A stretch of 64,000 nt of DNA from Nemertoderma westbladi. Lineage: Eukaryota > Animalia > Xenacoelomorpha. The stretch is taken from NCBI GenBank assembly GCA_032718475.1, contig JAUCBJ010005881.1, positions 9,860-73,859 on the forward strand, given 5' to 3'. Position numbers and translations under genes: made by a program. A model generated the notes under the pieces. It had not been told where the DNA came from, did no database searches, and saw nothing but the letters and a program-made list of their open reading frames with translations. Positions 3,641 to 30,998 of this stretch are shown here, one piece after another; the stretch's first letter is position 1, and every line of letters begins with the position of its first letter.

Positions 3641-4930
3641 GTTAACTAAACGTTTACATAACGGCTGTGAGATAGTTAACTAAACGTTTACATAACGGCA
3701 GTGAGATAGTTAACTAAACGTTTACATAACGGCAGTGAGATAGTTAACTAAACGTTTACATAACGGCAGTGCGATAGTTAACTAAACGGTTACATAACGG
3801 CTGTGAGATAGTTAACTAATCGGTTACATAACGGCTGTGAGATAGTTAACTAAACGTTTACATAACGGCTGTGAGATAGTTAACTAAACGTTTACATTAC
3901 GGGAGTGAGATAGTTAACTAAACGGTTACATAACGGCTGTGAGATAGTTAACTAATCGTTTACATAACGGCTGTGAGATAGTTAACTAAACGTTTACATA
4001 ACGGCAGTGAGATAGTTAACTAAACGGTTACATAACGGCTGTGAGATAGTTAACTAAACGTTTACATAACGGCTGTGAGATAGTTAACTAAACGATTAAA
4101 TAACGGCTGTGAGATAGTTAACTAAACGGTTACATAACGGCTGTGAGATAGTTAACTAAACGTTTACATAACGGCTGTGAGATAGTTAAGTAAACGGTTA
4201 CATAACGGCTGTGAGATAGTCAACTAAACGTTTACATAACGGCTGTGAGATAGTTAACTAAACGGTTACATAACGGCTGTGAGATAGTCAACTAAACGTT
4301 TACATAACGGCTGTGAGATAGTCAACTAAACGTTTACATAACGGCTGTGAGATAGTTAACTAAACGGTTACATAACGGCTGTGAGATAGTTAACTAAACG
4401 TTTACATAACGGCTGTGAGATAGTTAACTAAACGTTTACATAACGGCTGTGAGATAGATAACTAAACGTTTACATAACGGCTGTGAGATAGTTAAATAAA
4501 CGTTTACATAACAGCTGTGAGATAGTTAACTAAACGTTTACATAACGGCTGTGAGATAGTAACTAACCGTTTACATAACGGCTGTGAGATAGTTAACTAA
4601 ACGTTTACATAACGGCTGTGGGATAGTTAACTAAACGTTTACATAACGGCTGTGGGATAGTTAAATAAACGTTTACATAACGGCTGTGAGATAGTTAACT
4701 AAACGTTTACATAACGGCTGTGGGATAGTTAACTAAACGTTTACATAACGGCTGTGGGATAGTTAACTAAACGTTTACATAACGGCTGTGGGATAGTTAA
4801 CTAAAGGTTTACATAACGGCTGTGAGATAGATAACTAAACGTTTACAAAACGGCTGTGGGATAGTTAACTAAACGTTTACATAACGGCTGTGGGATAGTT
4901 AACTAAACGTTTACATAACGGCTGTGAGAT
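3641..4930. repeat. Satellite, 34-bp unit (GTTAACTAAACGTTTACATAACGGCTGTGAGATA), left arm
   Basis: About 38 tandem copies ending at the GAGAT TSD of element 1. Confidence 0.97.
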
Positions 4931-5059
4931 TATAGAATTATATTCTCTAAATGCCGTGGATTTTCAAAATTTTTATTTTATTCGAATTAACTTTGCTAAA
5001 GATTACATTAAGTCCTCATTTGTATTTGCTATATCTATTTGTACGATGATTAGTCAAGT

Positions 5060-5144
5060 GGTTCAGTAGCTCAGTCGGTAGAGCGTTGGAAATTATATGT
5101 AGTGTGTATTGATTTCGAATCCTAGTAAGTGCGAATTATTTTTT
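5060..5144 (+). promoter_or_regulatory. tRNA-derived Pol III type-2 promoter-like segment in the 5' LTR (B box degenerate in this copy)
   Basis: A box/D-arm TAGCTCAGTCGGTAGAGC at 5067; GATTTCGAATCC at 5111; T6 run at 5139-5144. Confidence 0.7.
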
Positions 5145-5211
5145 GTGCAGAATTTCAACTCATTTAAATTGGCCGCTACAAATTAATTGCATTTACTCGA
5201 AGTAAGGTTAA

Positions 5212-5465
5212 CCAATGAGACTGTAGTTATTAGATTGTAACCAATGTCGTACGAGTTATATATTTGCTGGACCAATAGCTATCTTTAAAAACCTGTTAGA
5301 ACTCATAGAACAATCGAGAATTTTCTCGATTGATTGTGGCACAAATTTGGTATAAAAGGTGCGATTTCGTTCATTAGTTATCTCTCTCTATCTTTCTTTC
5401 TCAGTTACATTATTTCAGATTACATTGTTTATTGTATAATAGTTATCGTTTGATTTTGTAATAAA
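5212..5465 (+). promoter_or_regulatory. Candidate Pol II promoter and poly(A) signal of LTR 1
   Basis: CCAAT at 5212, 5241 and 5272 (about 30-bp spacing), TATAAAA at 5351, AATAAA at 5460. Confidence 0.55.
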
Positions 5466-7638
5466 AGTTAGAAATACTTGTCACATCTGCCCTTTTCTAT
5501 CTGTTTTATCATGCTTCACCACGGTGAACCCAACTGAGGGACAGGATGGCTGGCTAGACATCGGGCCGCAGCAATGAACGGGAACATCAAAGGAATGTAG
5601 ACAGGAATCAGGAATGATATCATCTTAGTTATTCGCCCATCGCCTGAAAGGTTAGACAGCGTTCGATGCCTTGCTACCTAAGTATAAGACCAAAGATCGA
5701 AGGTAGAGGTAGTGACACGCTGTACGCCTAAAATTACATCTAGGGACTGTACTGTCTTAATTCAGGAAAAAACCGCAGTAGACCTTCATATTCCTACGGG
5801 GGGGGAGAGGAGAGAGCTCAGGCAGAGATACTAGTACGCAGATAGGACGTAGGCACACCGGTACAAGGCATACACATTGGTAGGGTGCAGCAAACTGTAC
5901 GCCTAACTCTTGCTAAGTACAGGTGCGTCTGCGACTATTTGTAGTACAATGGTGTCCATTGCATCAGAACTTGTCGGCCAGGAGAGTTGCTGCGTTTCAC
6001 CTGAATTAGGATTGTACTGTTCAGGCGGTAGGGCAGTTTACGACTAGGCGCAAATAAATTGAGGCTAATTAGGGATACTAACATCTACCGTGTCCCCGCC
6101 GACATCCTGATAGGAAGTTACCAAGCCCACCTAGGTAACCAAAATTCTAGATAAGAACGCCAGGCTAGCTATTAGTAACCGTACGCCTACTGTAGTAAAC
6201 TAACACATTTCTTCTTAGTATTAGGGACCTGGTAAATTAAAATTGCCGAATTCTGGGCGTAGTATTAATCTCATGCCAGAATTTGAGTCCTGGAAATACG
6301 CAAGAGGGGAAGGAGCCTTATCATTCGTGAGTATTGGCCCTACAAGTTACAAAATTAGAATATTCGTAAAATGCACACCGTACCCAGTAATTATATATGT
6401 GAAGGAGCAAAACTGATCTTGACTGTTCAGAATTAACACACGCGCGTTAAAAATTATTTACACCTCAAAATATATAAAATTAACTTTTGTCCGTACTGCG
6501 CTTTGCCCGCTAGTTAGACATCTCCAAATCTCTGCACCTAGCTAGCGTCTCTTTCGCCCAACCATATAAATCACACCGCGGCAAAGTATACGAGCCCTTT
6601 AGTCCGTCAGCGAGTCAGCCTGATTTTAGGATTCGCTGCGCGGGATTTTGTTTTATCGAAGTTTGTCTGTTCGTAGACTGTTTTCTGCCTTACCGGTTAT
6701 AAGGGACCAATACTGCAATATATTCGCTTACTTGGAGTTTACTGTTTTGGTGAGAAGGTCGGATTTATGATTTGATTCACAAACTTTACAGTAAGATATT
6801 GCAGGTATTGTTACTGTCTCTTCGAATTAGTAGGAATGTGTTTTACTGAACTACAGTTCGGTAGGACTAAAGTTATTTGAAAATTTTGTATTTTGAGGTA
6901 AAAGTTTATATTTGATTAGCTAAGTGCTAATTTTTTGAAATAAAATTTTGATTTGAACCGCGTGTAAAATTTTTGGAATTGAATACCGGTGTTTAAAAGG
7001 ATTTAAATACCATATTGTACCGGTACAAAATTTTCGTAAAAGTAAAACCTAACTCTTTTGTTTTTCAGGATTCAGAACTCATTTCTAGACTGTAACGAGA
7101 GCAAGACCGTGTTTAGCAAGTTTGGGAGATAGATAACCCAACAACTTTGGTTGGGAAAATCGCACTTCGTCCGCAACGCTGGAAACGGAAAGGTTCACGT
7201 CCGGTTTGTATCTGGGAATCTGTTTTTCTGGAGAATTATTGGAGTGGGTGATTTCGAAAAGTTGCATAAATAAGTTAGGCATTACAGTATTAGTTAAAAT
7301 TTATTGTGGGTTCCACTGTCTCAAGTATTTATGCATTCCGTACGATTTCTTTGTTCATTGCTGAATTAGTCCGTATTATTGTATTTAATTTACCTTTTGA
7401 TAACGCATATCGTTATCCGATTTATTTGTTATAAAATTGGCCGCTAGGCTAATTTTATTATATACTTATTCCGTGACATTTATTTGCTGTAAAATTGGCC
7501 GTTTAGGCTAATTTTATCCATCTGCTATAAAATCGGCCGGTAGGCTAATTTTATATGACTGTAATTAGTACTGTTTAAATATAAATACGGTAAATTTGAT
7601 ACTTTGACACTCACTTTACTTGACTTACAACTACTGAA

Positions 7639-10600
7639 ATGAGTGACAAACAAGACTATACGAAGAATACACCTACCGACTATGACTCATGTGATGCGGA
7701 TAAGTCAGCAGCGGAAGAACTACAAGGGAAGACTCGCGAGCCTACCGAACCTACACCGTGTGCGTCACCAGTACATCCAACGGGAGTACCGGATGCCGTA
7801 GTACGAGGCGACGGCAGGACCGAGGACTTTCTAACTGTTCCGCAACCTAGATATAGGGAAACGGACATGGTAAGTTCAGTAGGAAGCCAGGAGAGCGTGG
7901 TTAGAAGCGTCGGCGGATACATGGCGCATATTACCAGGAGTATTGGAGAAGGCCAACGCATATTAGACGAGTTGACCGCTCCGATGTCTCGGTTTGAGTT
8001 CTACACCCTCCAGGTTAGAGTACAAAGTAGAGTACATAAGTCCGTAGATAACCTTATCAGTCTACAAGATCTAGCTAGACAGAGACAGGATATGGATACT
8101 CAACTTAGAATCCTCGAGAAACTAATGATCGCTAGAGAGAAACTGATTCAGTTTAAGTCGACAATTAGGCAGATACAACAGGAACAAGCGGACCAGTTGT
8201 TAGGTGAGTCAGTTTCGGACGAATTATTGCAACCCGAGGAAGAACAGGAACTGTATAGGCTGGATGGACAATTGAAACACCTGACGGATCACTTACGCAT
8301 GTGCGGCGAGGACGTCGGAGATTGGGAAACCGTGCCGGAGGCTACGAGGGAAACTTCACTCGCACAAATCGAACCGGCACCGGGAACACTAGATCAATCA
8401 CTGGTGAGTATTCGCAGCGAAATTGGCGAGGTGAGTATGGCTACGTCAGAAATTGCTCGACAACAGCAGATCTACAGACAACAACAGGAGTGGGAGGAAC
8501 AAACTCAATTGCTAATGGCACAAGCAGCAGCAGAAGAAGAGAAACTACGCGTTGCGAATGTTGCGAGAATCTCTCATCTGCAAGAACAAGCTGAGTTGGA
8601 AGCAGCCGAAATGGAAAGGTTAGAGTTGGACATTGCACAACAAGCGGCAGCGGCCGAGTTAGCGCAACGAACGGCAGCGGCCGAGTTAGAGCGACAAGCG
8701 GCAGCGGCAGCGGCAGTGGCAGCGTCCGAGTTAGAGCGACAAGGGTTAGCTTCAGAAGTGAGAACCGAAATGAAAAAACGGCAAGTAAAGGCTCAGTCAG
8801 CTATACGACAAGCGGAGTTCGAGGCGCAACAACAACAAACGGAACAACGCGAGAAAGAAGTTAAACTTCGTTTCGAACTTGAGAAGAAGGCGAGAGAATT
8901 AGCCAACGCCAAGGAAGATTTGGATCTACAAGCCCGCGACCGATCGATGAGATCTCGAGACGGACATGATTTAGACCAGATGGAGGTAAGGCACCGCCAA
9001 ATCCAGGAACGAATGAAGGAAGGTTCGATAGGAGCACCTGGACGGGAACGACAATTGGTTAAAGACTTATGTCAAAGATTCCCTCAAGTAACTCCTATGT
9101 TTGCACCAGTTACGACTAAGGAACCTGTTTTGATTGCTGGTAGTAGTAATATTTCTCCTATCCATGGTGCGACAGAACACAGGTTTGTTATTCCGGACAA
9201 GTTTACACCGCCAAGAGCAACGTCATCGCCTATTCCGAAAGTCAAGGTAAGTAACCCACCGATTACAGATCGTAGTAGTTTGTTGACCGCACCTGCACTA
9301 CTGACGACTAAACAGGTGAGTCCACCTTCGACACCAAAACCCGCCAGAACATACACGTACCCAATGACTTTTAGGCCTACAAGGCCTTTAGATTCAAACG
9401 CTGTCATTCGACCACCGAACCAGTTTACATCGCAATCTACGACTTCGAGGAAGACTTGTGAGCCTACCGAACAACGGAGACCAGTGGATACGCTACCGTT
9501 CAACCAGTTTACATCGCAATCTACGACTTCGAGGAAGACTTGTGAGCCTACCGAACAACGGAGAACAGTGGACGATGTTCCGAAACGGAATGTTAGAATT
9601 CGAACGACACAACGGACGCGAGCACGTCAGCCACCGTATCCAGGTGACAGTAGTACTTCGAGTGAATCGGATTACCCGAAACGCGAGGTATTTAGAACAG
9701 GAGCGGCTGACGAATATAAACGTGAGCGTTCAGATAACTCCTTTATCGATAATCCTCCACAAAATACACCAACACAAAAGGCGTTACAACCAACGGACGC
9801 AATTAGTACGCAACAACTCGCCGAAATAATGCGCCCAGTTGTAGACAAGTTGGCTCAGATAGAGAAACGTTTAGAAGAAACTCAAACTGATAGTTCGCGA
9901 GGTAACGAGTTCGAACACTCTAGACACCCGAAGCAGCAAAGAAAACAACCCTCGAGAAACACTTCGTATCAAGGAAAAGCGCCAAGACGAGAGAACATCA
10001 ACTCGATTGTCAACCAAGGACGCGAAACTTTGAACGTGGCCGAGGAGATAGCGAAATTCGCCGCCAGACAAGGTTTACCGGTACAACAACCACCGAAGTT
10101 TTCAGGTAACTCGAAACATTGGCACACCTTTGTGGACTACATCGAAACACAAATAGCAGCGTGCGCCTTTACATCGAGGGAGAAATTCAACTACCTGCTA
10201 CAAACGCTGACGGGAGAACCGAAACGTCTAGCGGAGACCTTTGTCGGTGTACCAGATGCCTTCGAACTAGCGTATGATCGCTTAACTTCAATTTACGGTG
10301 GCACGGTGAGTATGGCTAAGTCAGTGATAGATGAACTCTGTAAAGGGGGGGCTATAACAAAACCCGTTGACTTACTAAAATTAGCTGACGAGATTAAGAA
10401 CGCCATTACTACACTACGCTCGATTGGACAACTTGACTACGCGAACACTCCGACAGTTCTATTGAAAATAATAGGAAGATTACACCATCGACTTCGTCGG
10501 GAGTGGCGAAAGATAGAATATCAGCGAGAAGAGAGAGGCGGATTCTTGAAGTTGGAAGACGTCTACTTACTGATATCCAGAGAGGCAGTCGTTGAGACGC

Positions 10601-13600
10601 GTTCGAACTACACGGACCAACATATCGTGGCGGAGGGAATAACATTACCATCCTCGAACCGACAAAAACCCCAAACAACATCCACCAAGACGGTTACTTA
10701 CGCCACATCGACCGACACCCGACAATTTTCGGACAATAATAAGGTATCCGCACCAATTGGAACCAAACAGATCCGACAGCAACTGACCACAGATTTTAGC
10801 GGTTGCCAATATTGTGAACGGCTAGGTAAACGACATACTAGCCATAAACTGAGAGGTTGTCGACTATTCTGCGAATTGAACTCGGAGGAACGACGATTAC
10901 AAATACGACCATTGGACTCTTGTTGGCGGTGTACGCTACATGGACATGTCTGTAAGGACTGCCCAAATACAGACACCTGTCCTTCTTGTGGACGCAACCA
11001 CGACGGCTTGCTACATACAGACAGTCATACGCCGACCAAACGCTTCACCAGGGAACACCCGGAAGCTGCAGCAAGATGCAACACAGCATATAAGGGTCGA
11101 GAGTCGAAAACAACACCGACATTCGTGACGCACATTAGAGATTGTTTCTCGGAACAATCAGGATCGTCAGATGAAGAGTCGGAAGACGAAGACGTTTACT
11201 TTGATACTGGAGACGAACAACCATCGATTGCGCTTCTGACGCCTGATCAACTAAAGGGGTTTAGTATAATACCTGTCAAGATTACTGGCATCAAAGGGAG
11301 CAAGAGGATCTACGCTATCCTGGATTCAGCCTCATCTCATAGCTACGTGGATGAGAAAGTAGCTGATGTTGTGACGGATCTCCGACAAGGTAAGAACGTC
11401 AGTTACACCGTAAGTAGTATGCATGGACAACGTGCAATACCAGTGACACGAGTTAAGTTGAACTTAGACACTCTTCTTCCGAAATCGCAACATAGCGAAA
11501 AGGAGAGGTCTTTGTTACCCTTTAAGGATTTAACCTTTGCGGCCACAAAGGACTTTAGTAACCTACTAGGTCCTGTCCCAGAACAATCCTTGGAGGACCA
11601 TAAGTACTTCAGACACCTTGGTGTACCTGAATGTCCTGTCAACTATAGGTCGGTAGCAATGCTGATCGGGACAGATCAATTCAACCTACATCAAGTGTGG
11701 GAAACCAGACCATCGGCAGTCGTAGCGGGAAACGCATACGCCTGTAGAACGCCGATAGGGTGGTATACTCGAGCGCCTGTGCGCACACTGGATATAAGTG
11801 ACGAGGAAGACGATATACAAAGTACATGTAGTTTATTAACTACAACTTCGACTCATTCCTTTTCACACGACGTAGACTATACTACACTACATTCGACAAA
11901 ACATGACACGACGTGTGTAGCGAGTATGATAAGTCACAAGGAGCAGCTAATCCACCAGGTGAGTTTAGAACTTGGGAAGAAGACGAGTCAGCCAGAGATT
12001 CCATCGACGACAGATGATAACGCCGGAAGACTTGCGAGCCTTTCTACACCAGACATATCGCCAGACACGTTACCAGACGTATCACCAGACGCGTTACTAG
12101 ACGGTCAACCAGACATTTTGCCAGACATATCACAAAATGTTCTACCAGACACTAGTAACATATTGACAAATAGTAAAGCCGCAGTTTCTCTATTGGAGCG
12201 GCCTTCTACAGACAATCAACCAGACACGTTACCAGACGTATCGCCAGACGCGTTACTAGACGGTCAACCAGACGTTTTGCCAGACACGTCACTAGATATT
12301 TCGCCGGATGTTCCGCGAAACATTTTACCAGACATGTCACAAAATGTTCTACCAGACACTAGTAACATATTGACAAATAGTAAAGCCGCAGTTTCTCTAT
12401 TGGAGCGGCCTTCTATTGACAAACAACCAGACGCGTTACTAGACGGTCAACCAGACGTTTTGCCAGACATGTCACTAGATATTTCGCCGGATGTTCCGCG
12501 AAACATTTTACCAGACATGTCACAAAATGTTCTACCAGACACTAGTAACATATTGACAAATAGTAAAGCCGCAGTTTCTCTATTGGAGCGGCCTTGTATT
12601 GACAAACTACCAAATTTGACACACTTGAGCAACAATAAGCACAGTGAAACCTCATGTATTACAGATGTGGGTAGTACCTACGTAAATGTAAATACAGGTG
12701 TTACTTTGCGCTCAAGAGACATACCAAACTTGCAACCTATGGTGAAACCTGGGATTAATATCGGCAGAAAAATAAGTTTACCGAAACCCACTGACCCCAT
12801 AGAGTTCAAACCACCATTAACGATCGACTTACAAAGTACTGACAACCAAGGTAAGAAAACAAGGAAGGACAAATTACTTGTAGACCCGGACGGATCAACA
12901 GTCAACAAGGGAATACTTACCGGCGGACCCGTGGGCCCTTCTAGTAAATCAAAACCTTCCAAATTCTCCATTGACTTACCTGATGACGTCACAAATACTT
13001 ACGTCGACCGCATTGTAAACCTAACAGATTCTTGGACAAACGCTTGCCGAAAATTAGCGTGGATTGTACGTTTTGTACAATACGTTAAAGGCAAACGCGA
13101 CTTTACACGTCGACTTACATTGACTGAGATTGACAGGTGTGAAATTAAATTAATTCGCCATTACCAACTGCGATATTTCGCACGCGAATTCACATCTATA
13201 AATCAAGGTCAACCAATCAAGTCGTCACCAATATTGAGTTGGAGTCCGATAATTTATAATGGCTTAATTTGTCATAAATCTCGGCTTCAAAACATTGACT
13301 TTAACACAAACTTTAGATACCCAATAATAATATCGCAGCATCACGAACTACAACGTTCAATGATACTGGACGCACATTTACATCTGAAACACGCTGGAAG
13401 ACACCACTGTCTTTCCTACTTACATACAAGATTTGTATTAATTAGACCCAGTAAAGCGTTAAGTTCAGTGACACGTACGTGTATTATTTGTAAAAAGGTA
13501 CATTCTAGAATAGGTACCCAAGAAATGAGTGAACTTCCACAAGCACGACTTCAAGCATTCAGACCACCTTTTACAGAGACTGGAATTGACTGCTTTGGTC

Positions 13601-14511
13601 CCATACATACGAAACGTGGACGTATACTAGTAAAACGCTGGGGACTGATTTTCACATGTATGTCCAGTAGGGCAGTTCATATTGAACGTGTGATGGATCT
13701 TTCCACCAACGCGTTTATACTAGCATTGCGGCGATTTATCGCTAGACGCGGACTAGTGAAATGCTTGTACTCAGACCAAGGGACAAACTTTGTTGGTGCT
13801 CGAAATGAGATTGCTAGAGCCTTTAAGAAATTAGATCATGATCAAATCTCAAACGAACTACGTCCTTACAAGATTGTTTGGAAGTTTAATCCTCCAGATA
13901 GTCCATGGAGAGGCGGAGTCTGGGAGAGATTGATTAGATCTATAAAGACAGCCATGGCAAAGGTCATTCCAGTAAACCACATTTTGACAGACGACCAACT
14001 GACAACACTGTTTGTTGAAATCGAGGCAATACTAAATACTAGACCAATAGTATTAGTACCCGATGACAAACAATCCCAGTTTGCTTTAACACCGGCACAC
14101 CTGCTTATGCAGGCACCGACTACTTTAACGCCTATTTCTTTTCCAACAGAAGGCGATAGCTACGGTAGAAAAGCGTGGAAAATCAGGCAACTACTAGCTA
14201 ACAAATTCTGGGAAATATGGCAAAACCATTATTTGCCCTCTATTTCTGCCAGAACAACATGGTACAATAACACCCGCGCATTAAAGCCGGGAGATCACGT
14301 GCTGTTAGCGGAAGTGAATCTAAAAAGACGCTTCTGGATAACAGGTGTAATTTTAGCCACACATCCATCTATGGATGGAGTGACAAGAACTGTGACAGTA
14401 CGGACAATTGACGGTCGTACAGTTGACAGACCGACTCAACGTCTCGTACTTCTTGAAGAGACTCGTAACGAGTCTGGAGACTACAAATCTCCAACTAATG
14501 TTAGTAAATAA
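7639..14511 (+). CDS. BEL/Pao polyprotein Gag-protease-integrase lacking RT and RNase H (2290 aa)
   Basis: Gag PPKFSG...W..F; knuckles CQYC..H..C, CWRCTLHGHVCKDC, CPSCGRNHDGLLH; protease AILDSASSHSYV; IN HLHLKH...CIIC, TGIDCFGP, YSDQGTNF, GGVWERLIRSIK; no YxDD or DAS motif. Confidence 0.93.
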   Translation: MSDKQDYTKNTPTDYDSCDADKSAAEELQGKTREPTEPTPCASPVHPTGVPDAVVRGDGRTEDFLTVPQPRYRETDMVSSVGSQESVVRSVGGYMAHITRSIGEGQRILDELTAPMSRFEFYTLQVRVQSRVHKSVDNLISLQDLARQRQDMDTQLRILEKLMIAREKLIQFKSTIRQIQQEQADQLLGESVSDELLQPEEEQELYRLDGQLKHLTDHLRMCGEDVGDWETVPEATRETSLAQIEPAPGTLDQSLVSIRSEIGEVSMATSEIARQQQIYRQQQEWEEQTQLLMAQAAAEEEKLRVANVARISHLQEQAELEAAEMERLELDIAQQAAAAELAQRTAAAELERQAAAAAAVAASELERQGLASEVRTEMKKRQVKAQSAIRQAEFEAQQQQTEQREKEVKLRFELEKKARELANAKEDLDLQARDRSMRSRDGHDLDQMEVRHRQIQERMKEGSIGAPGRERQLVKDLCQRFPQVTPMFAPVTTKEPVLIAGSSNISPIHGATEHRFVIPDKFTPPRATSSPIPKVKVSNPPITDRSSLLTAPALLTTKQVSPPSTPKPARTYTYPMTFRPTRPLDSNAVIRPPNQFTSQSTTSRKTCEPTEQRRPVDTLPFNQFTSQSTTSRKTCEPTEQRRTVDDVPKRNVRIRTTQRTRARQPPYPGDSSTSSESDYPKREVFRTGAADEYKRERSDNSFIDNPPQNTPTQKALQPTDAISTQQLAEIMRPVVDKLAQIEKRLEETQTDSSRGNEFEHSRHPKQQRKQPSRNTSYQGKAPRRENINSIVNQGRETLNVAEEIAKFAARQGLPVQQPPKFSGNSKHWHTFVDYIETQIAACAFTSREKFNYLLQTLTGEPKRLAETFVGVPDAFELAYDRLTSIYGGTVSMAKSVIDELCKGGAITKPVDLLKLADEIKNAITTLRSIGQLDYANTPTVLLKIIGRLHHRLRREWRKIEYQREERGGFLKLEDVYLLISREAVVETRSNYTDQHIVAEGITLPSSNRQKPQTTSTKTVTYATSTDTRQFSDNNKVSAPIGTKQIRQQLTTDFSGCQYCERLGKRHTSHKLRGCRLFCELNSEERRLQIRPLDSCWRCTLHGHVCKDCPNTDTCPSCGRNHDGLLHTDSHTPTKRFTREHPEAAARCNTAYKGRESKTTPTFVTHIRDCFSEQSGSSDEESEDEDVYFDTGDEQPSIALLTPDQLKGFSIIPVKITGIKGSKRIYAILDSASSHSYVDEKVADVVTDLRQGKNVSYTVSSMHGQRAIPVTRVKLNLDTLLPKSQHSEKERSLLPFKDLTFAATKDFSNLLGPVPEQSLEDHKYFRHLGVPECPVNYRSVAMLIGTDQFNLHQVWETRPSAVVAGNAYACRTPIGWYTRAPVRTLDISDEEDDIQSTCSLLTTTSTHSFSHDVDYTTLHSTKHDTTCVASMISHKEQLIHQVSLELGKKTSQPEIPSTTDDNAGRLASLSTPDISPDTLPDVSPDALLDGQPDILPDISQNVLPDTSNILTNSKAAVSLLERPSTDNQPDTLPDVSPDALLDGQPDVLPDTSLDISPDVPRNILPDMSQNVLPDTSNILTNSKAAVSLLERPSIDKQPDALLDGQPDVLPDMSLDISPDVPRNILPDMSQNVLPDTSNILTNSKAAVSLLERPCIDKLPNLTHLSNNKHSETSCITDVGSTYVNVNTGVTLRSRDIPNLQPMVKPGINIGRKISLPKPTDPIEFKPPLTIDLQSTDNQGKKTRKDKLLVDPDGSTVNKGILTGGPVGPSSKSKPSKFSIDLPDDVTNTYVDRIVNLTDSWTNACRKLAWIVRFVQYVKGKRDFTRRLTLTEIDRCEIKLIRHYQLRYFAREFTSINQGQPIKSSPILSWSPIIYNGLICHKSRLQNIDFNTNFRYPIIISQHHELQRSMILDAHLHLKHAGRHHCLSYLHTRFVLIRPSKALSSVTRTCIICKKVHSRIGTQEMSELPQARLQAFRPPFTETGIDCFGPIHTKRGRILVKRWGLIFTCMSSRAVHIERVMDLSTNAFILALRRFIARRGLVKCLYSDQGTNFVGARNEIARAFKKLDHDQISNELRPYKIVWKFNPPDSPWRGGVWERLIRSIKTAMAKVIPVNHILTDDQLTTLFVEIEAILNTRPIVLVPDDKQSQFALTPAHLLMQAPTTLTPISFPTEGDSYGRKAWKIRQLLANKFWEIWQNHYLPSISARTTWYNNTRALKPGDHVLLAEVNLKRRFWITGVILATHPSMDGVTRTVTVRTIDGRTVDRPTQRLVLLEETRNESGDYKSPTNVSK

Positions 14512-15043
14512 TTAGGAGTTTACAAATAGATTTCCACGTACCTGTACACTGTAGTAAAGACAGCGGTAGAATTCCATTGTCTTTATATGTGAACATTGAG
14601 GGTAATACCCTTATGTATCACATAGGAGCGGGATTTGTAGGTATAAGAAATGGAATTATACTTGGAACTCACAATATTGAGACATTTTCGAAACTTTAGA
14701 CAATCCATTTGGATTTGAAAAAATTTTAAAATTTTCTCCAGTGAATAGATTTCAGGGTACAGTCGGGTGGAACTTAAAATTAGAGAAACAAGAGAGGAAG
14801 ACTTGCGAGCCTTTCTTAAAATTTTAATTAAATTTTACACGGTCTTGTTTCAATAAGTTACGTCAAAATAGACTTCCCTATATTTATTACTAATTCTTGA
14901 TTGCTTATTTTCTGATAATAGTTTGGGATCAAAAAGTGAGTATTTTAGACTCACAGCCAGTTTAGCCCAAATTCGTTTTTTATTTCGGCAAAAATTTTAG
15001 ATAAGAAGCAGCGTGTCATTAAAGAAACCCTAGATCTTAGGCT

Positions 15044-16666
15044 ATGGGTAGGAGGTTAGAGCGTTGTCGAGCCAAAAAAGGCAGACGAAAACTCTCACGT
15101 CTCCTCACAACTAACTACAAACTCTGTTGTAATCCCTCTAGTAGTAATGATTATGTAACTACACCTCTAATTATGGAGAGGATGCGTGTATTGGGCTATT
15201 ACGTCACCTCCAAGAGCGGTCTTACAATATTATTTAGCAATAGAGTCGTCAGTGAATGTTTGCTTAATAACAAACGTATCGTGGAGATTACGGATGAATC
15301 ACGGCAGACGCGCGCACCTATCGGTCACCTTGGTGATGATTTCGAAGTAACGACTACGATCACTGACGATCCTTTAGAGGAACTTCTTGAGATAGAAAGG
15401 AACCTCCCGAAGAAATCTCAGACGGAGATTCGACAACTTGAAGCAACAGATGCTATAGTTTGTATACAACCTTCAGAAACCTACCAACCCATAGATCCAG
15501 ATGATTATGATTATAGTGTGGGAGGAAGCGCTCGACCAATTGGAGATCTTATATAAGAACGAGTGTGGTACCCTGCCAATACGATGTGTGGTAAATGTGG
15601 CGTCGCTGGACATCATTCGACCAAGTGCAGTGGAAAGCACATTACTACGACTCAACTAATCTGTGGATGGTGTGGAGATCAAGGGTCTCATACCTTTTAT
15701 ACTTGCTGGAGATTTATGGCTCAATGTACTTATTGCAATATAAAAGGGCATCGAGCATCTGAATGCCAACTAAGAGACATACCCTATGAACACGAATCTG
15801 TAAAACTCGTGAGAAAACTATTCGATGAGTGGGAAGATTTAGCCGACGAACACGTATCGGCACAAAGAAGACGATTTCCGATGAGGGCGCATCTTGGATT
15901 TTGGGCGGTAAATCCCCAAACGATGATGTCGGAAGGATACATCTCCGCTATGCCCCAATATGACGAACTTATCGAGGTAGTCGATATTTTGCCTCACGAC
16001 AGTCGATTCCGAGTAGTGCGTGAGTATCTATTACAGATTCACCCAGACAACAAGAACACGTGGAATTTTCAGAAAGTCGTAAATCGTATCACGTATGGTG
16101 AATTTGATCGTTTTCGAACTGAAAAGCGGAATAAAGGAGCTTGGTTAACCGTCGCATGGGCGTACCGAGCCGCGTTTTACCACAAACGTATACGAGCGAG
16201 CGTATTCGAGGAAGAGGAGATCCTAGAGGCGACAAATATACCAGCCACTCCGGTTGCGCCGTCTGCACGTCACACTCGGGAGGACGGGCAGGGTAGGATC
16301 ATAAGGGTCCAGAAAGTTAGCCAACAATTAAAGAAGTCTATTAATATAGAAGAACGCAAGGGAGTTGAGCCGACCATTCGAATTACTCGGGATACGGTAT
16401 CGCTTCCTAGAGAACCAACAGGAGGATCGGGACATACACCAGCTGATCAAAAGGGGGCGCAAGCTACTCTTGGGTCTGTGTCGTCCGCTTCCCGCGCATT
16501 CCCAGACGTTTTACCAACTGTAGTGACAACTGATCGGTCACGAGGAATCGGTCGAGGTTTTGGGATGCCAAATAGACGAATTTGCGAGGAAATAGTCGCA
16601 CCGTCTCCCAACGTCCAAACGAAACCAGTGACTCGCCCCACGAGTCCCATATCGCGAGCAAAGTGA
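15044..16666 (+). pseudogene. Accessory ORF of element 1, triple zinc-knuckle protein with one in-frame TAA (15554-15556)
   Basis: ORFs 15044-15556 and 15563-16666 share a frame; CGKCGVAGHHSTKC, CGWCGDQGSHTFYTC, CTYCNIKGHRASEC; start codon uncertain. Confidence 0.75.
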
Positions 16667-17502
16667 CCTGTGCGCAGTTTTCGAGGACGCGGCAGGGCTC
16701 GATCCACTAAGCGATAAAAGGGAGGGCAAGGGTGGACGGAAGACTCGTGAGCCTTTCTTGTGAATTTGTGATTTATTTGAATTATATGTTTTATATTTAA
16801 TTAGTAAGTTTTGTATTCTGGAAGAACTCATATTTAGTAAGATTTATATTTAGTAAGAATTTATATTTTGCAAGATTTATATTTTATATTTGTGATTATT
16901 CCGAACTTATGCAATTTATATTGTTCCGAATACTATGCAATTTATATCTTATAAGCAGTATTTGTATTTACAGTGAAATAGAAAGTAAGAGTAGATGGAA
17001 GACTCGTGGGCCTTTCTTATAGTTTCATTTGTAAAGTGTTATATTTGTATTTAGAAAGTTTTATAGTTAGAAAGTTTTGTACTTAGAAAGACTCATATTT
17101 GTAATTATTCCGAACTTATGCAATCTACATTTAGGCACGAAAGTATTTGTAATTATTTGAATTTATGCAATATTTGAGATGCAATAGTAGATGGAAGACT
17201 CGCGAGCCTTTCTTATGATTTCATTTATTTGTATTTGTAATTGTTTGAATTTATGCAATATTGAGATGCAATAGATTTATATTGGTGAATTTAATTTAGA
17301 TTTATATTGTACTTACTTAGTAAAGCCTTAAATATGTAAAGTTTGAATTTGTAATTATTTTGTATCGAATTATTATGTAGAAAGGAAGTATTGCTTGAAA
17401 TTTAATTTGTAAATATGTAAGTACGCGACGCCCTAAGTATTCTATAATTTGATTGATTATTGGTGAAAACCGTATATTTTATGCACGATAATATCCTGTT
17501 TT

Positions 17503-17512
17503 CATGGAGCGG
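17503..17512 (+). other. Polypurine-tract-like site of element 1 (CATGGAGCGG)
   Basis: Immediately precedes the 3' LTR; resembles CTGGGTGCGG at the same position in element 2. Confidence 0.65.
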
Positions 17513-19410
17513 TATAGAATTATATTCTCTAGATGCCGTGGATTTTCAAAATTTTTATTTTATTCGAATTAACTTTGCTAAAGATTACATTAAGTCCTCA
17601 TTTGTATTTGCTATATCTATTTGTACAATGATTAGTCAAGTGGTTCAGTAGCTCAGTCGGTAGAGCGTTGGAAATTATATGTAGTGTGTATTGAGTTCGA
17701 ATCCTAGTAAGTGCGAATTATTTTTTGTGCAGAATTTCAACTCATTTAAATTGGCCGCTACAAATTAATTGCATTTACTCGAAGTAAGGTTAAGCAATGA
17801 GACTGTAGTTATTAGATTGTAACCAATGTCGTACGAGTTATATATTTGCTGGACCAATAGCTATCTTTAAAAACCTGTTAGAACTCATAGAACAATCGAG
17901 AATTTTCTCGATTGATTGCGGCACAAATTTGGTATAAAAGGTGCGATTTCGTTCATTAGTTATCTCTCTCTATCTTTCTTTCTCAGTTACATTATTTCAG
18001 ATTACATTGTTTATTGTATAATAGTTATTGTTTGATTTTGTAATAAAAGTTAGAAATACTTGTCACATCTGCCCTTTTCTATCTGTTTTATCATGCTTCA
18101 CCACGGTGAACCCAACTGAGGGACAGGATGGCTGGCTAGACATCGGGCCGCAGCAATGAACGGGAACATCAAAGGAATGTAGACACGAGACAACCCGCAA
18201 TATCATCTTAGTTATTCGCCCATCGCCTGAAAGGTTAGACAGCGTTCGATGCCTTGCTACCTAAGTATAAGACCAAAGATCGAAGGTAGAGGTAGTGACA
18301 CGCTGTACGCCTAAAATTACATCTAGGGACTGTACTTTCTTAATTCAGGAAAAAACCGCAGTAGACCTTCATATTCCTACGGGGGGGAGAGGAGAGAGCT
18401 CAGGCAGAGATACTAGTACGCAGATAGGACGTAGGCACACCGGTACAAGGCATACACATTGGTAGGGTGCAGCAAACTGTACGCCTAACTCTTGCTAAGT
18501 ACAGGTGCGTCTGTGACTATTTGTAGTACAACGGTGTCCATTGCATCAGAACTTGTAGGCCAGGAGAGTTGCTGTGTTTCACCTGAATTAGGATTGTACC
18601 GTTCAGGCGGTAGGGCAGTTTACGACTAGGCGCAAATAAATTGAGGCTAATTAGGGATACTAACATCTACCGTGTTCCCGCCGACATCCTGATAGGAAGT
18701 TACCAAGCCCACCTAGGTAACCAAAATTCTAGATAGGACGCCAGGCTAGCTATTAGTAACCGTACGCCTACTGTAGTAAACTAACACATTTCTTCTTAGT
18801 ATTAGGGACCTGGTAAATTAAAATTGCCGAATTCTGGGCGTAGTATTAATCTCATGCCTGAATTTGAGTCCTGGAAATACGCAAGAGGGGAAGGAGCCTT
18901 ATCATTCGTGAGTATTGGCCCTACAAGTTACAAAATTAGAATATTCGTAAAATGCACACCGTACCCAGTAATTATATATGTGAAGGAGCAAAACTGATCT
19001 TGACTGTTCAGAATTAACACACGCGCGTTAAAAATTATTTACATCTCAAAATATATAAAATTAACTTTTGTCCGTACTGCACTTTGCCCGCTAGTTAGAC
19101 ATCTCCAAATCTCTGCACCTAGCTAGCGTCTCTTTCGCCCAACCATATAAATCACACCGCAGCAAAGTACACGAGCCCTTTAGTCCGTCAGTGAGTCAGC
19201 CTGATTTTAGGATTCGCTGCGCGGGATTTTGTTTTATCGAAGTTTGTCTGTTCGTAGACTGTTTTCTGCCTCACCGGTTATAAGGGACCAATACTGCAAT
19301 ATATTCGCTTACTTGGAGTTTAATGTTTTGGTGAGAAGGTCGGATTTATGATTTGATTCACAAACTTTACAGTAAGATATTGCAGGTATTGTTACTGTCT
19401 CTTCGAATTA
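17513..19410 (+). repeat. 3' LTR of element 1 (1898 bp)
   Basis: Direct repeat of 4931-6829, followed by TSD GAGAT. Confidence 0.95.
17642..17726 (+). promoter_or_regulatory. tRNA-derived Pol III promoter-like segment in the 3' LTR (intact A and B boxes)
   Basis: TAGCTCAGTCGG at 17649, GAGTTCGAATCC at 17693 with tRNA-like spacing, T6 at 17721-17726. Confidence 0.75.
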
Positions 19411-19428
19411 GAGATAGATAACTAAACG
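19411..19428. repeat. 18-bp remnant of the 34-bp satellite between the two retrotransposons
   Basis: GAGATAGATAACTAAACG matches monomer variants seen near 4451 and 4824 and contains both inner TSD copies. Confidence 0.9.
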
Positions 19429-20608
19429 TGTAAAGGCTTTTGCGGAATTAGCCGGTTATTTTCCCGGTAAAGTACTCTGTAGTTGGTTTAACAGGCATAA
19501 AAGGCCGTGTCCTTACTGTACTGGTGTTTTAGAGGACATAAAAGTCATTTCTTCTGTATGTGTACTTTAGCGGACATAATTCGCAATTTTATGACGCAAT
19601 GCGCCAAATCCTCTGTAAACAGTGTAGCTACCATGACGACGGCTAACAGCTGATGCTGTACACGTGGAGCCTTTTCTTTGTTCTCTGTTCCTTCTTTGTT
19701 CGGTCGACCAATCAGAGTGTTTTTGCCTCTGTGTTAGAGATTGTATATAGAAACTCGTGGAGTTGAGTCAGTATGTGATTTTGTCCACAGCCTACAACAC
19801 AGGCTTTGGAACCTCCGTGTTTCAGTCTTTAGCCCAACATTAGTAGGCTTAATTATAGAACGTATATCTGTTATCAATCCAAACTCAATAATCATAACTT
19901 ACTCACTCACTCATAACTTAACAAACCATTCATAACTTAACATTTTACTGCTTTTACTGTCGGTTATTCATTATATTTGTTGATGGAATATTATATTTGG
20001 AATACTGATAAATAATCAGACACCCCAATCTTCTTGATATACTAAAGGTTAGAGAGACCGGTTACATATAACGATTGCGACTTACATTAAGTGGTTTGAA
20101 GTGAATCTAATGCTATTTTATAGGCCCTACATGTATTGTCTGTTGTTCTCCTTATATGTGACTAAAATTAATGAAGGTCGGCAGATCAGTGTGCAGCATT
20201 GTGCAGTATTGTGTATGATTGTGATTGATAACAAAGCATCTCCTAAAGAATGCGCCATATACGTGAATCTATAGCCATTCCGTTGTGTCTAGTTTAAGTC
20301 ATAACTCTGTTTATATATTTAAAGCGCCACGTCCTAAAGGAACTGTTAATATTTCCCGAAAGTGAATAATATTTGTCAGAGATTATATATATTACGATCA
20401 GTCGAATAATACAGTAGGCCTACCCCGCAATACGGTTAGGCTTCCGAATCCAGTCTCCCGGGTATATCCAGCGGGTGAATGATCGCGCATAGACTGGCTT
20501 CGGCTAATGTAGTGTATCAAATACTTGTCATAGGCTAAAGATGATCTATCATCTAAAAGACATCCCAATTTGGCAGGTTAAACTGCTAAAGGTCTGAAAA
20601 CGCGAACA
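19429..20608 (+). repeat. 5' LTR of element 2 (1180 bp)
   Basis: Matches 36861-38040 with about 11 substitutions counted by eye. Confidence 0.96.
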
Positions 20609-20890
20609 ATAACAGATATACCTTCTGTATTGCAGTAGGCAATAACGCTGAAGTACCGGACAACCGGTACCTAGTAGGCCTGACTACCTAACCACCCGGA
20701 CCGGTACCTACAGCAGTACAGGTACATCAGTATTATTCGATTGTGAAATTGTATACCGGTAGGCTGTTTAAGAGATTAGGGACTGTACACCCCTTGTTTC
20801 TTTTGGAGCTTACTTATTTCTGTCAGTTTTATTTATTTGTAGGCCAGTATTGAGCAGAAGGCGTGTAAGCCTGCTCAGATTGTACAGACA

Positions 20891-21455
20891 ATTTGTAGGC
20901 TAGACTGTTGTCTGACTGTTGTTAAGTCTGAAGGGACTGTAGTGTGTGTAGAGCATATGTCCGAAAAAGTACTAGTTAGGAAAGTAGGGGCTGCCAGTGC
21001 TGTGAGGTGAACCCCCCAAGAAAGAATAAGTCGTACTACTCGGTTAGAACGCATACTAACTAACCATTTCGGAGTCTGCATATATTGTAGTTTATTTAGG
21101 CTTGATAGTAGTCTGCCAGCGTTTGGTCTGTACCTTGTTTGTGTAGTTTGTATGGGTAGCGTAATAGTTCTTATTTAGATAATTTGTAGGCTGGATTTTG
21201 TCTGACTGTTGTTAGGTCTTGAGAGATTTCGGTGTGTGTAGAGTGTATGTCCGATAAAGTGCCAGTTGGGAACGTAGGGGCTTCCAGAGCTGTGAGGTAA
21301 ACCCCCTCGAAAGTATAAGTCGTACTACTGGGTTAGAACGCATACTAACTAACCATTTTGGAGTCTGCATATACCGTAGTTTGTTTGGGCTTGACAGTAG
21401 TCTGTCAGTATTTGGTCTGCATTTTGTTTGAGTAGTCTGTACGCGTAGCGTAATA
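20891..21455 (+). repeat. Tandem duplication (~291-bp period) in the 5' leader of element 2
   Basis: ATTTGTAGGCT...GTCTGACTGTTGTTA...GGTTAGAACGCATACTAACTAACCATTT occurs twice, starting at 20891 and 21182. Confidence 0.85.
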
Positions 21456-22791
21456 TTTATTATTCAGAGTTTATGCGATTATTCGCAACATTCATATCCC
21501 CAAGTTTATTCCTACAGTAATTGTGCTTGTTATATATACCGTTATAGTTAAACTAACCCCGGTACTACATCAGGGCTGCTTGGCGTAGGTAAAGACTGGT
21601 GATTTTGTGCCCCGGTCACTCCAGCAGATACCGTGGTTCTTTTAGCTGTTCAAGTATTTTTAACTACTGATTATTTGTTGTATAAGTACTTGTACCTAAT
21701 TTAGGGTTTAGTGTACAGTGCTTTCCGAAGGTGATTAGTGTGTAGGCAGTATATTTGTGTTGTAAAGTGGTTAATAGGCACGTTGGTTCTGGTAGACCGC
21801 GGTAATTAACTTCTAGGTAGGAACACTCCGTGATACATAACGTAGTACTTATAGCGCCACGGCTATAAGTCGTCAGACGGTGGTATTTTTCTATCTGGAC
21901 AACGCAGTATATTTACTACTACTTATTATTTTCAAATACCGTAGTACCCTGTCCTTTGTAATAACCAGATATTCTAACCCTTTGTTAGGCTGGTTAGTAA
22001 ACTTCTTGTAAAACTACCCTAAAAATTTGTACTTGTAAATTTTTGTGTTTATTTAGAGATTGTAATCTCACCTCGAATTGTACGTAATTTGTAGTATTAA
22101 GTAACTTAGGTAAATTAGAATTATTTGTTTTAGTGTCCAACAAGTAGCACTTCACTGAGAGCGCACAGCTTCTGTGTAGTGACTCCCCCCAGAAATAATA
22201 ACATTTATTTCAAATATTGACAAAACCCATTTAACGGGTAAATATATTATAAATCAACTCAAACCGATTTATAAAATAGTAGGCCTGCCATACAACAATT
22301 AGGTCTCAAGATCAGTTAGACTACTGCTCAAATAACGGTAATCAAGTAAAGCAAAGTAACCAAGTAACCCTAAAAATTCAGAAATTCAATTATTCTAAAA
22401 TAATTGATATACTATTTACAATAGGCTTATTATATTTATTTCTATAAATTTAGGCTGAAATTATACCGGTATTCTGTAATTAATTCTAGTCCATAATTAT
22501 ACTTATATATACTATAAGTGTAAGCTGTATACCGGTATTCACGATAGGCCTATTATATATTTATATATACTTGTGCTGAAATTACATACCGGTATTCTGT
22601 GACTAATCTAGTCTGTGACAATACTTATATATATATACTATAAGCATACCGGTATTCTAATATATTATATATATATTACGCTACACTGAGTAGCAGTATC
22701 GGTAATTAATTACTAGGCTAACAGTGATACTGAATTACTAGACTTGCTTAAACTGTAATATAGCAGTAGGCATTCAACTGTACAAACCAAC

Positions 22792-28700: not shown

Positions 28701-30998
28701 GTTGCCTTGGTTACCTCTAAGGCATTAATAAACAATAAGTTGAAAGTTCCTCGAGCGGATTTAAAAGCGGCTCTATACGCTACAGCCATCGGCCGGAATG
28801 TAACAGAACAGATCGACTATCCACTGGAGAAAACTGTCTATTGGACCGACGCTTTGCTCGTGTTGGAGTATATAACCAATGAAGTCTGTCAGTTCAGCGT
28901 CTTCGTTACCAACAGAGTAGCCATTATACTCAGTCGCACAACGATGGATCAATGGAGACATTGCCCCGGAACGATTAATCCAGCAGACATCGCTTCCAGG
29001 GGAGCAACTCCACAAGAACTGGTTGATACTCCAGACTGGCTAGGTGGACCCGACTTCCTCTACAAAGAAGAAGAAGAATGGCCTCCTCATCTTACTACCA
29101 CAGAGATTAGACAAGCCAAGGGAGTGGAGAAAGTCAAACCTAAAACTCAGGCGAGTAAATCGAAGTTATTCAAACCTATGGTAGATCTGTCTGTACTACA
29201 TACTTCCGGAGACGACGCCTTGGATCAGAAACCCACAGCCACAAATAAACTTGTTGTGGAAATCCGTGAGAAGGATTGGACATCTGGAATACCAGACGCC
29301 TCGCAAGGACTCTCACCTCTCCTGCAGAGAGCGATACATCACTACAGTTCCTGGAATCGGCTCTGTAAGGCCGTTACATATTTAAAAAGATGTTTTCACC
29401 ATCACTACTCCGGGATGAAGACCAAAAGTGATACCGCTCCAATAACATCGGTGCAGGTCCATGTTATTAAAGATCTTCCCAAATATAAGATATCCGACAG
29501 GTTTCTGAAGGAGAAGATCAGTTATCAGGAGCATGAAGAAACCAACAAGCAGATGCTGAGACTCCTGCAATGCTATGAGGATTCCGATAAGTATTTCCTG
29601 TTGTTGAGAAATCCGCAGATGCACTTAAGGGATCGTTTCTCTAGCACAATGATAGATGGGTTGATACGTGTTGGAGGAAGATTAACGAATGCTCCATTAT
29701 CCTTTGACACTAAGTTTCCCATACTCATTAGAAATCTTGAAATACAAGTCAAGATGATTGTAGACGTTCACAGCAAACTTTATCATGCTGGTAGGGAATG
29801 AGTTCTTAGCGAAATTCGAACTTGCTATTATTTTTATAAACCCCGTAGAGCTCTGAACCAAGTTCTTAGGAACTGCATACCCTGTAGGAAAGCATTCAGT
29901 AGGCCTTTAACACAGCGAGAGGCAGAATTACCTAGGGAACGAGTAAGCTTCTATGAACCACCCTTTACTAATACCGGTGTGGATTTATTTGGCCCTATTG
30001 AAGTATATCGTGCTAGGACTATAGTCAAGAGATGGTGTGTCATCTTTGTTTGTATGACTTGTAGAGCTATCCATCTCGACAGGGTGAACGATTTATCTAC
30101 CAACAGCTTTCTATTAAGCTTACGACGACAGATCGCTCGCTTTGGCACTAGTAACACGATGAGATCTGATAAGGGAACAAACTTCATTGGTGCCAACAAT
30201 GAAATCAAAGCTTACGTCAAAGATTGGAACCAAAGACAGGTGGACGATCAGCTACGAGTAACAGCGTCTAGCTGGACCTTCAACGCCGCCGACGCCCCTT
30301 GGTGGGGAGGAAGTTGGGAGAGATTAATAAGAAGTGTGAAAACCGCATTTCACTTTATAGTGCCGTGCCGCGCGTATCTCACCGACGAACTTTTGCGGAC
30401 GTTAATGGAGGAAATCGCCGCCTATCTCAACGAGAGACCGCTTATGCCAGTCTCATCGAGTCCCGATTCCCTGGAAGCGCTAACACCCGCGCATTTCCTA
30501 CTGAAGAAACCTGTAGCCATGCTCCCACAATCGGAAATCACAGACGGAGACGAATACTGCCGGCAAACTTGGCAACTCATGCAGTTGTTATCCCGTCGTT
30601 TCGCTGACCATTTCGAAAAACATTATCTGCCCACGCTACAACTTCGAACTAAGTGGTTTGCGCAGCAAGAAAACGTCAGCGCTGGAGACATGGTTCTTAT
30701 TGTGGATGTAGATCTTCCACGTAAGCGGTGGCAGACAGGTCGTATCATCGAGACTCACATCTCGGATGACGGTTTGGTGCGATCGGTAGAACTCGTCGTC
30801 ATGCGACGTAACTTCAAGAAACCGGGAATTGTCTTCGAGACACAGCAGCTCAATCGCCCAGTTGGTCGCTTATGTTTACTGGAAAGGGACAGAGAACTCT
30901 CCGGAAACTATGGGAGGCAAGATACTCTTCCCACGACCACCTCCCTAATCCAACAAACATCTAGGGACTATAAATTTTATTATAATCGTTTTCTTTAA
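22792..30998 (+). pseudogene. BEL/Pao gag-pol (Gag, PR, RT, RNase H, IN) disrupted by four stops and one frameshift
   Basis: Knuckles CYNCLRQGHQRRTC; PR ALLDSGSTGTFI; RT ASDIEGMFLQV and YMDD; RH LHVFGDAS, YWTD, NPADIASRG; IN TGVDLFGP, SDKGTNF, GGSWERLIRSVK; stops at 23032, 23218, 25354, 29799; frameshift near 26040. Confidence 0.93.

What the first reader, a model, noticed from the sequence alone, without database searches (positions are those of the whole stretch)
5787..6856. Element 1 shows the same LTR-to-PBS complementarity with a different sequence
Seen: GTAGGAATGTG (6830-6840), immediately after the LTR, pairs over 11 nt (one G.U) with CATATTCCTAC (5787-5797). TTTACTG can extend pairing with CAGTAGA (5776-5782). 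A second, weaker partner is AACACATTTCTTC/CTGTAGT at 6190-6214. There is no TGG PBS. Inference: conserved geometry with wholly different sequence in two elements argues for function and independently places the LTR edge at 6829. The signal is statistically weaker than in element 2.
Basis: partly seen in the sequence, partly recalled or inferred. Interest (0 to 1): 0.7.

Follow-up and report, generated by a model that had tools for sequence, protein, structure and literature searches.

The report
Self-priming signature in Bel/Pao retrotransposons
A jumping gene in an animal genome lacks the usual tRNA landing site and instead has 11 bases there that match a stretch of its own terminal repeat; many distant relatives show the same kind of match in different letters, often only once a predicted intron is removed, so this group likely starts copying itself from its own RNA.

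Summary
Observation confirmed. Element 1 (4931-19410) is a young Bel/Pao LTR retrotransposon that has lost its reverse transcriptase. The 11 bases after its LTR (6830-6840) match 5787-5797 with one G.U, and no TGG follows the LTR. Alone the match is modest (11 of 2000 shuffles; 393 of 2000 with free G.U). The weight comes from relatives. Six of 8 non-TGG elements with LTR-pair-defined edges show 11-14 perfect pairs, against at most 6 in 10 tRNA-type elements. In 19 selected positives, 2 of 342 swapped PBS/LTR pairs reach 10. In 12 of these 19 the complement exists only across a predicted GT-AG intron; elements 1 and 2 carry the unsplit form. The trait clusters on the integrase tree. The likely mechanism is Tf1-like self-priming; no priming was shown. 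The LTR edge rests on the 5-bp target duplication, not the duplex. Eight literature searches found no Bel/Pao self-priming, and ICTV states tRNA priming. This scan reported the same mechanism earlier on other genomes. Interest 0.68.

The parts
4926..4930 (+). Left copy of element 1's 5-bp target site duplication (GAGAT); right copy at 19411-19415; insertion is in a 34-bp satellite
   Evidence: satellite array 3641-4930
4931..6829 (+). 5' LTR of element 1, 1899 nt, ends TA...TA instead of TG...CA; 98.2% identical to the 3' LTR
5787..5797 (+). LTR partner of the primer site (candidate self-primer; its 3' end faces the first base after the LTR)
6830..6840 (+). Non-tRNA primer-binding site of element 1, directly after the LTR; no substitution at 1% or more listed in 6770-6852 among laid family contigs
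6840..6867 (+).
5776..5782 (+).
6190..6218 (+).
5351..5356 (+). TATA-like box, 436 nt upstream of the partner; suggests a start near 5380 (inferred)
5460..5465 (+). AATAAA upstream of the partner; its use in the 3' LTR would be incompatible with strand transfer under the self-priming model
6053..6058 (+). AATAAA 256 nt downstream of the partner; the signal that the self-priming model needs
5651..7068 (+). Candidate GT-AG intron (1418 nt) that would remove both partner and primer site; seen as a joint in one contig of run X4 (22 letters on the short side)
7624..14511 (+). Open 2295-codon frame: Gag (DUF1759), zinc knuckles, protease, integrase (DUF5641); no reverse transcriptase or RNase H
15041..16666 (+). 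Extra 3' reading frame, split by one stop, with zinc-knuckle-like motifs; homologous to element 2's 34819-36537 frame (E 1e-18)
17513..19410 (+). 3' LTR of element 1, preceded by a short purine tract ending GCGG; holds the same partner, ending at 18380
19429..20608 (+). 5' LTR of element 2 (TG...CA, 1180 nt, target duplication AAACG; 3' LTR 36861-38040); its partner is 19862-19874
20609..20621 (+). Non-tRNA primer-binding site of element 2: 13 perfect pairs with 19862-19874

Best explanation
Element 1 is a Bel/Pao LTR retrotransposon whose primer site matches a stretch of its own LTR, and it likely starts reverse transcription with that piece of its own RNA instead of a tRNA. Shown: the match, its register at the LTR edge, the absence of TGG, the same element-specific match in 18 other elements, and its clustering on the integrase tree. 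Inferred: 5787-5797 folds back on 6830-6840 in unspliced genomic RNA; a cut 3' of C5797 (RNase H in Tf1) frees a 3' end; a reverse transcriptase supplied in trans, since element 1 has none, copies 6829 back to 5798; strand transfer then needs the RNA to end downstream of the partner in the 3' LTR, for example at the AATAAA equivalent to 6053. In most relatives the primer would exist only after a predicted LTR intron is spliced out; elements 1 and 2 carry the unsplit form.
For: Element 1: 11 of 2000 shuffles; 5 of 500 and 0 of 500 by energy; pairing probability about 0.99 in folds from 5787 and 5770; its PBS scores 11 with its own LTR and at most 9 with 18 other LTRs. Relatives with LTR-pair-defined edges: 6 of 8 non-TGG elements have 11-14 perfect pairs; 10 tRNA-type elements have at most 6; 0 of 56 swapped pairs exceed 9. 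Loci with edges guessed at ACA: 7 of 28 non-TGG reach 11 or more, against 0 of 8 TGG loci and 4 of 216 swapped pairs. In 19 selected positives, 18 have at least 10 perfect pairs, against 2 of 342 swapped pairs; 12 need a GT-AG junction with a GTRAG-type donor and a pyrimidine-tract acceptor, which points to pairing in RNA. L076 has an acceptor before the last five partner bases in its 5' LTR and the unsplit partner in its 3' LTR. The 71%-identical LTRs of L072 both keep the junction halves and splice sites. Tree: 2 changes for 19 self-type and 16 tRNA-type rows, shuffled mean 11.8, 0 of 500 as low.
Against: No priming, cleavage or transcript end was observed. Element 1 is the weakest of the 19: 8 strict pairs, the only G.U, and with free G.U the match is ordinary (393 of 2000). 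Its partner lies 1032 nt from the LTR end, against 52-244 nt in the 17 relatives. The best TATA box (5351) and an AATAAA (5460) lie upstream of the partner, so it is probably not the RNA's first 11 bases as in Tf1, and the fold from 5381 does not form the duplex. The joint in X4 implies transcription from upstream of 5648 (one contig, run type guessed). L022 failed (7 pairs). 21 of 28 guessed-edge loci stayed under 11; several of these contigs may not reach the LTR, which was not checked for each. L052 is self-type but falls among tRNA-type rows. L027 gave a false 8-10 pair match with G.U at a wrong edge. Covariation among element 1 copies could not be read.
Confidence: 0.72

Rival explanations
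1. The duplex is real but structural, not a primer: it closes the 5' leader for packaging, dimerisation or choice between spliced and genomic RNA, and priming uses something else.
For: The partner is probably internal, about 400 nt from the likely start. The pairing depends on where the RNA starts. A candidate intron removes both partner and primer site.
Against: In 19 of 19 selected elements the duplex begins 0-4 nt after the LTR edge with the partner's 3' end facing the LTR, and the site starts GT or AT. It replaces the TGG site instead of adding to it. A purely structural helix needs neither.
Confidence: 0.13
2. Self-priming holds for the group, but element 1's own match is chance or a decaying relic in a non-autonomous family.
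For: Only 8 strict pairs, a length reached by 103 of 1970 internal positions; one G.U; no reverse transcriptase; partner unusually far from the LTR end.
Against: The element is young (LTRs 98.2% alike, intact target duplication, open 2295-codon frame) and thousands of contig pieces of its family are laid in two independent samples, so the family was primed somehow and has no TGG. No better contiguous or spliced partner exists in its LTR. Its sister element 2 has a perfect 13-mer.
Confidence: 0.1
3. A host RNA fragment, such as a half tRNA as in some copia elements, is the primer, and the LTR match is secondary.
For: Half-tRNA priming exists (PMC6317226, passages). The last seven partner bases of elements 1 and 2 loosely resemble anticodon loops (loop consensus recalled, not from a call). 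The host's tRNA set was not available.
Against: A mature tRNA end needs TGG, absent until 6974. Each family has different letters matched only by its own LTR. Twelve matches fall exactly across predicted splice junctions. Rfam gave nothing meaningful in 4900-7700.
Confidence: 0.05

Closest known systems
Tf1/Tf2 of Schizosaccharomyces pombe and the Tf1/sushi and Tcn1 groups (Ty3/gypsy), self-primed reverse transcription
   Same: No tRNA site; about 11 nt after the LTR are complementary to the element's own LTR-derived RNA, in the register that puts a 3' end at the LTR edge (Tf1 as described in PMC7175516 and PMC5341516, passages).
   Different: Different superfamily (Bel/Pao). In Tf1 the primer is the RNA's first 11 bases; here the partner is probably internal. 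In 12 of 19 elements it spans a predicted intron. Element 1 has a G.U, a 1-kb distance to the LTR end and no RT.
Belpaoviridae (Bel/Pao, Semotivirus)
   Same: LTRs, 5-bp target duplication, Gag DUF1759, protease, integrase with DUF5641, and in element 2 the Peptidase_A17 domain.
   Different: ICTV describes an 18-nt site for host tRNA-Arg or tRNA-Gly, LTRs of 0.2-1.2 kb and genomes of 4.2-10 kb (PMC8742986, whole text). Here there is no tRNA site, a 1.9-kb LTR with TA...TA ends, lengths of 14.5 and 18.6 kb, and an extra zinc-knuckle frame.
TAR lineage (Houba, Osr-1) of plant Ty1/copia, predicted self-priming
   Same: Predicted from the same kind of evidence: at least 10 nt complementary to the LTR, starting 0-5 nt after it (PMC6317226, passages).
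   Different: Copia of plants; no splice dependence mentioned in the passages seen.

Membership tests
Bel/Pao (Belpaoviridae) | Two LTRs with a target site duplication | tested here: met
   LTRs 98.2% alike, 5-bp duplication
Bel/Pao (Belpaoviridae) | Bel/Pao-type Gag, protease and integrase in that order | tested here: met
   DUF1759 and DUF5641 above curated cut-offs; protease region aligns with element 2; element 2's integrase finds Peptidase_A17-bearing polyproteins at 31-43%
Bel/Pao (Belpaoviridae) | Reverse transcriptase and RNase H in pol | tested here: not met
   Element 1 has no significant alignment to element 2's residues 351-1212; it is a non-autonomous derivative. Element 2 has the Peptidase_A17 domain
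Bel/Pao (Belpaoviridae) | Primer site for a host tRNA (ICTV) | tested here: not met
   No TGG until 6974
Tf1-type self-priming | About 11 nt after the LTR complementary to LTR-derived RNA, 3' end at the edge | tested here: met
Tf1-type self-priming | [quoted passage not shown] | tested here: inconclusive
   No raw RNA reads. TATA at 5351 and the X4 joint point to an upstream start; a second start near 5787 is not excluded
Tf1-type self-priming | RNase H cut after the paired bases; primer attached to cDNA | not testable with these tools
   needs cDNA or particle biochemistry
Tf1-type self-priming | Adjacent U5-IR-like stem (known to me from a reference title and from recall) | tested here: inconclusive
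   Folds favour a local hairpin after the primer site; U5-leader pairing is weak and interrupted
Tf1/sushi group (membership) | Ty3/gypsy chromovirus-type pol | tested here: not met
   Domains are Bel/Pao
Splice-junction primer subtype (this scan's earlier notes; 12 of 19 here) | Partner split by a GT-AG intron in the LTR | tested here: not met
   No spliced partner of 10 or more pairs in element 1 with GT or GC donors and at most 1 G.U; its partner is contiguous

The most novel reading that the evidence does not exclude
A large part of the Bel/Pao family does not use tRNA: it primes with an internal piece of its own RNA that host splicing assembles, so splicing licenses reverse transcription. 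Elements 1 and 2 belong to a divergent lineage with the unsplit primer, in which a different splice (5651-7068) removes primer and primer site together and so separates messenger from genomic RNA, and in which an RT-less, TA-ended family still spreads to high copy number.
Probability: 0.55. Interest if true: 0.85.

Novelty: new variant of a known kind. Interest (0 to 1): 0.68.

Why it matters
The family's official description says replication is primed by host tRNA and is poorly understood. If this holds, many Bel/Pao elements in animals prime themselves, and in most the primer is made by splicing, a link between the spliceosome and reverse transcription that my eight searches did not find in print. 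It gives exact predictions for RNA starts, splice junctions, poly(A) sites and cDNA 5' ends. It would also explain why annotation tools that look for a tRNA site miss or mis-bound these elements. An element that needs no tRNA would escape silencing by tRNA fragments aimed at the primer site (inference).

Tried and rejected
No whole genome is held, so no host tRNA set and no copy-by-copy covariation. No RNA holder listed; all laid runs were contigs, which cannot show starts or ends. Loose ends at the LTR edge did not settle 6829 against 6830. One search used 20609 as element 2's edge, one base too far; corrected. L027 first looked self-type at a wrong edge and proved to have a TGG site; it was moved to the tRNA set. 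L022 failed and its edge is uncertain; it was left out. A spliced partner for element 1 was sought and not found. The careful tree did not finish in two runs, so the quick tree is reported; L001, L095, L105, L106 and L107 were left out for short integrase matches, and 69 of 104 rows carry no label. The named Bel/Pao clade (Suzu, Sinbad, Sparrow and others) could not be assigned: no reference sequences were at hand. Viral contigs gave one uninformative locus. ARAGORN and Rfam found no tRNA in the LTR. Three primary Tf1 papers were not held. No supplements were read; subscription papers, Repbase and GyDB were not searchable and may mention this.

Full report
Setting. The window is repeat-rich DNA; protein relatives with names come from animals; the host was not determined. 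Self-comparison shows two LTR elements side by side in a 34-bp satellite. Element 1 spans 4931-19410 with 1899-nt LTRs 98.2% alike, TA...TA ends and the duplication GAGAT. Element 2 spans 19429-38040 with 1180-nt LTRs 99.1% alike, TG...CA ends and the duplication AAACG. Both are Bel/Pao by Pfam. Element 1's open frame has Gag, protease and integrase but no RT or RNase H.

The observation. The 11 bases at 6830-6840 pair with 5787-5797, with one G.U, and the partner's 3' base faces the first base after the LTR. The first TGG is at 6974. Shuffled LTRs equal the match in 11 of 2000 cases with at most one G.U, 39 with two and 393 with any number; the strict run of 8 is reached in 62 of 2000. By energy the figures are 5 of 500 for 12 nt and 0 of 500 for 20 nt, and 13 of 1970 internal positions reach 11 pairs. 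Element 2 has 13 perfect pairs, 1 of 1991 positions. Folding 5787-6900 or 5770-6900 gives the duplex a probability near 0.99; folding from 5381 does not form it. For element 2 the values are 0.5-0.6 from 19854 and near 0 from 19770. Folds of this length are unreliable.

The LTR alignment runs to 6830 because the next base is G on both sides. The 5-bp duplication sets the edge at 6829; 5-bp duplications were seen in 6 of the 11 elements checked, and in L083 once its start was corrected by one base. In relatives the duplex starts 0-4 nt after the edge, so it cannot fix the edge alone. The extension is the 5' arm of a 12-bp hairpin, 6840-6867. Among contigs of four runs laid on 6770-6900, only three substitutions at 1% or more were listed: 6853, 6855 and 6860. 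At 6855 about 99% of the depth reads G, which gives the loop a UNCG form; the other two keep that loop form or a stem pair. None was listed in 6770-6852, but short contigs limit detection. The second partner mismatches at its second pair and reads like a splice acceptor; no joint was seen there.

Relatives. An integrase alignment fetched 107 loci. For elements whose edge comes from two LTR copies, I scored the longest perfect duplex starting 0-4 nt after the edge, contiguous or across a strict GT-AG intron. Six of 8 non-TGG elements scored 11-14; element 1 scored 8 and L022 scored 7. Ten TGG elements scored 4-6 (the edges of L027 and L070 were set from the TGG motif). None of 56 swapped pairs exceeded 9. 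For 36 loci with edges guessed at any ACA before gag, 7 of 28 non-TGG loci reached 11 or more, against 0 of 8 TGG loci and 4 of 216 swapped pairs. One search holds 19 selected positives: 7 with LTR-pair edges and 12 with inferred edges. The edges of L015, L025 and L064 were set by eye after the match was seen, and the acceptor filter was looser than. Eighteen of the 19 have at least 10 perfect pairs and 16 have at least 11; 2 of 342 swapped pairs reach 10. With one G.U allowed element 1 scores 11, and 2 of 342 swapped pairs reach 11. All 19 sites begin GT or AT. In 12 the complement forms only across a predicted intron of 98-1022 nt, for example 7+7 pairs in L086, 10+4 in L052 and 4+8 in L072. 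Both 71%-identical LTRs of L072 keep the halves and splice sites. Splicing itself was not observed. Element 1 has no spliced partner.

Tree. On the quick integrase tree (104 rows; the careful search did not finish), 19 self-type and 16 tRNA-type rows need 2 changes, against a shuffled mean of 11.8 and 0 of 500 shuffles as low; L052 is the exception. Elements 1 and 2 are sisters (SH-aLRT 99) on long branches. Split and unsplit partners need 6 changes among the 19, which fits repeated intron loss or gain. The tree is unrooted, so the direction is not shown.

Mechanism. [quoted passage not shown] The register here is the same, so I infer the same chemistry, with RT supplied in trans for element 1. 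One difference is likely: the partner is internal. The best TATA box is 436 nt upstream, and one contig of run X4, whose type is only guessed, joins 5650 to 7069 across a GT-AG span that removes partner and primer site (22 letters on the short side, weak). The AATAAA at 5460 lies upstream of the partner; replication-competent RNA would have to read past its 3' LTR copy, for example to the 6053-type signal. In 8 of the 17 relatives an AATAAA or ATTAAA follows the partner within 74 nt. These points keep confidence at 0.72.

What is known. ICTV gives an 18-nt site for tRNA-Arg or tRNA-Gly and calls replication poorly understood (PMC8742986, whole text). Self-priming is described for Tf1/sushi, Tcn1 and plant TAR (PMC6317226, passages; PMC5341516, passages; PMC5443660, passages). 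Term searches within four Bel/Pao papers found no use of PBS or tRNA (PMC554778, PMC3118150, PMC6238403, PMC8556966). Passages of PMC3601003, PMC6934838 and PMC8220671 added nothing on Bel/Pao priming. Eight searches (listings and abstract starts) showed no report of Bel/Pao self-priming or of a splice-junction primer; subscription literature and supplements were not seen. This scan's earlier notes report both on other genomes. I had reached this reading before opening them, and they are not counted as support. No look-alike of this locus was on record.

Verdict. Element 1 is the weakest but a consistent member of a broad non-tRNA Bel/Pao group that most likely self-primes. It works like Tf1 but is not a Tf1/sushi element. 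Novelty: new variant of a known kind. Interest 0.68.

Noticed in passing
window 7624-14511: Element 1 keeps one open 2295-codon Gag-protease-integrase frame but has no RT or RNase H; a low-complexity stretch with a 183-bp duplication (12244-12612) lies in their place. Whether the whole family lacks RT was not tested.
   Followed up: partly
window 3641-4930, 19411-19428, 38041-38452: Two different Bel/Pao elements sit 18 bp apart (duplications included) in one unit of a 34-bp satellite; removing them restores the repeat register. Possible satellite targeting.
   Followed up: partly
window 15557-16666 and 34819-36537: Both elements carry a homologous extra 3' frame with three zinc-knuckle-like motifs (26% identity over 178 residues); element 2 has a further 730-codon frame (32549-34741) with no Pfam match.
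   Followed up: partly
window 5063-5140: tRNA-like A-box and B-box followed by a T run in element 1's U3 (motifs recalled); not called by ARAGORN or Rfam. Run X4 has its highest summed depth over 5088-5369.
   Followed up: partly
window 4931 and 6829; L086 4931-5635: LTR ends are TA...TA in element 1 and TA...AA in L086 instead of TG...CA, each with a clean 5-bp duplication.
   Followed up: partly
window 6817-6837 (loose ends): Related contigs share the first 8 primer-site bases and then diverge; some look like tandem copies of the LTR-end/primer-site junction; three X3 contigs keep exactly the 11 bases and then diverge.
   Followed up: no
L076 1-326 and 6693-7103: One LTR has an acceptor before the last five partner bases; the other has the unsplit partner. 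This looks like intron loss by splicing, though the contig may be chimeric (LTRs 88% alike).
   Followed up: partly
L082-L106: Bel/Pao integrase loci occur in bacterial genome bins of genome contigs, most likely host DNA mis-binned or mis-assembled.
   Followed up: no
window 50558-52060; 38557-40595 and 48592-49334; 56590-59030: A separate RVT_1 frame, and 22-bp and 29-bp satellites.
   Followed up: no
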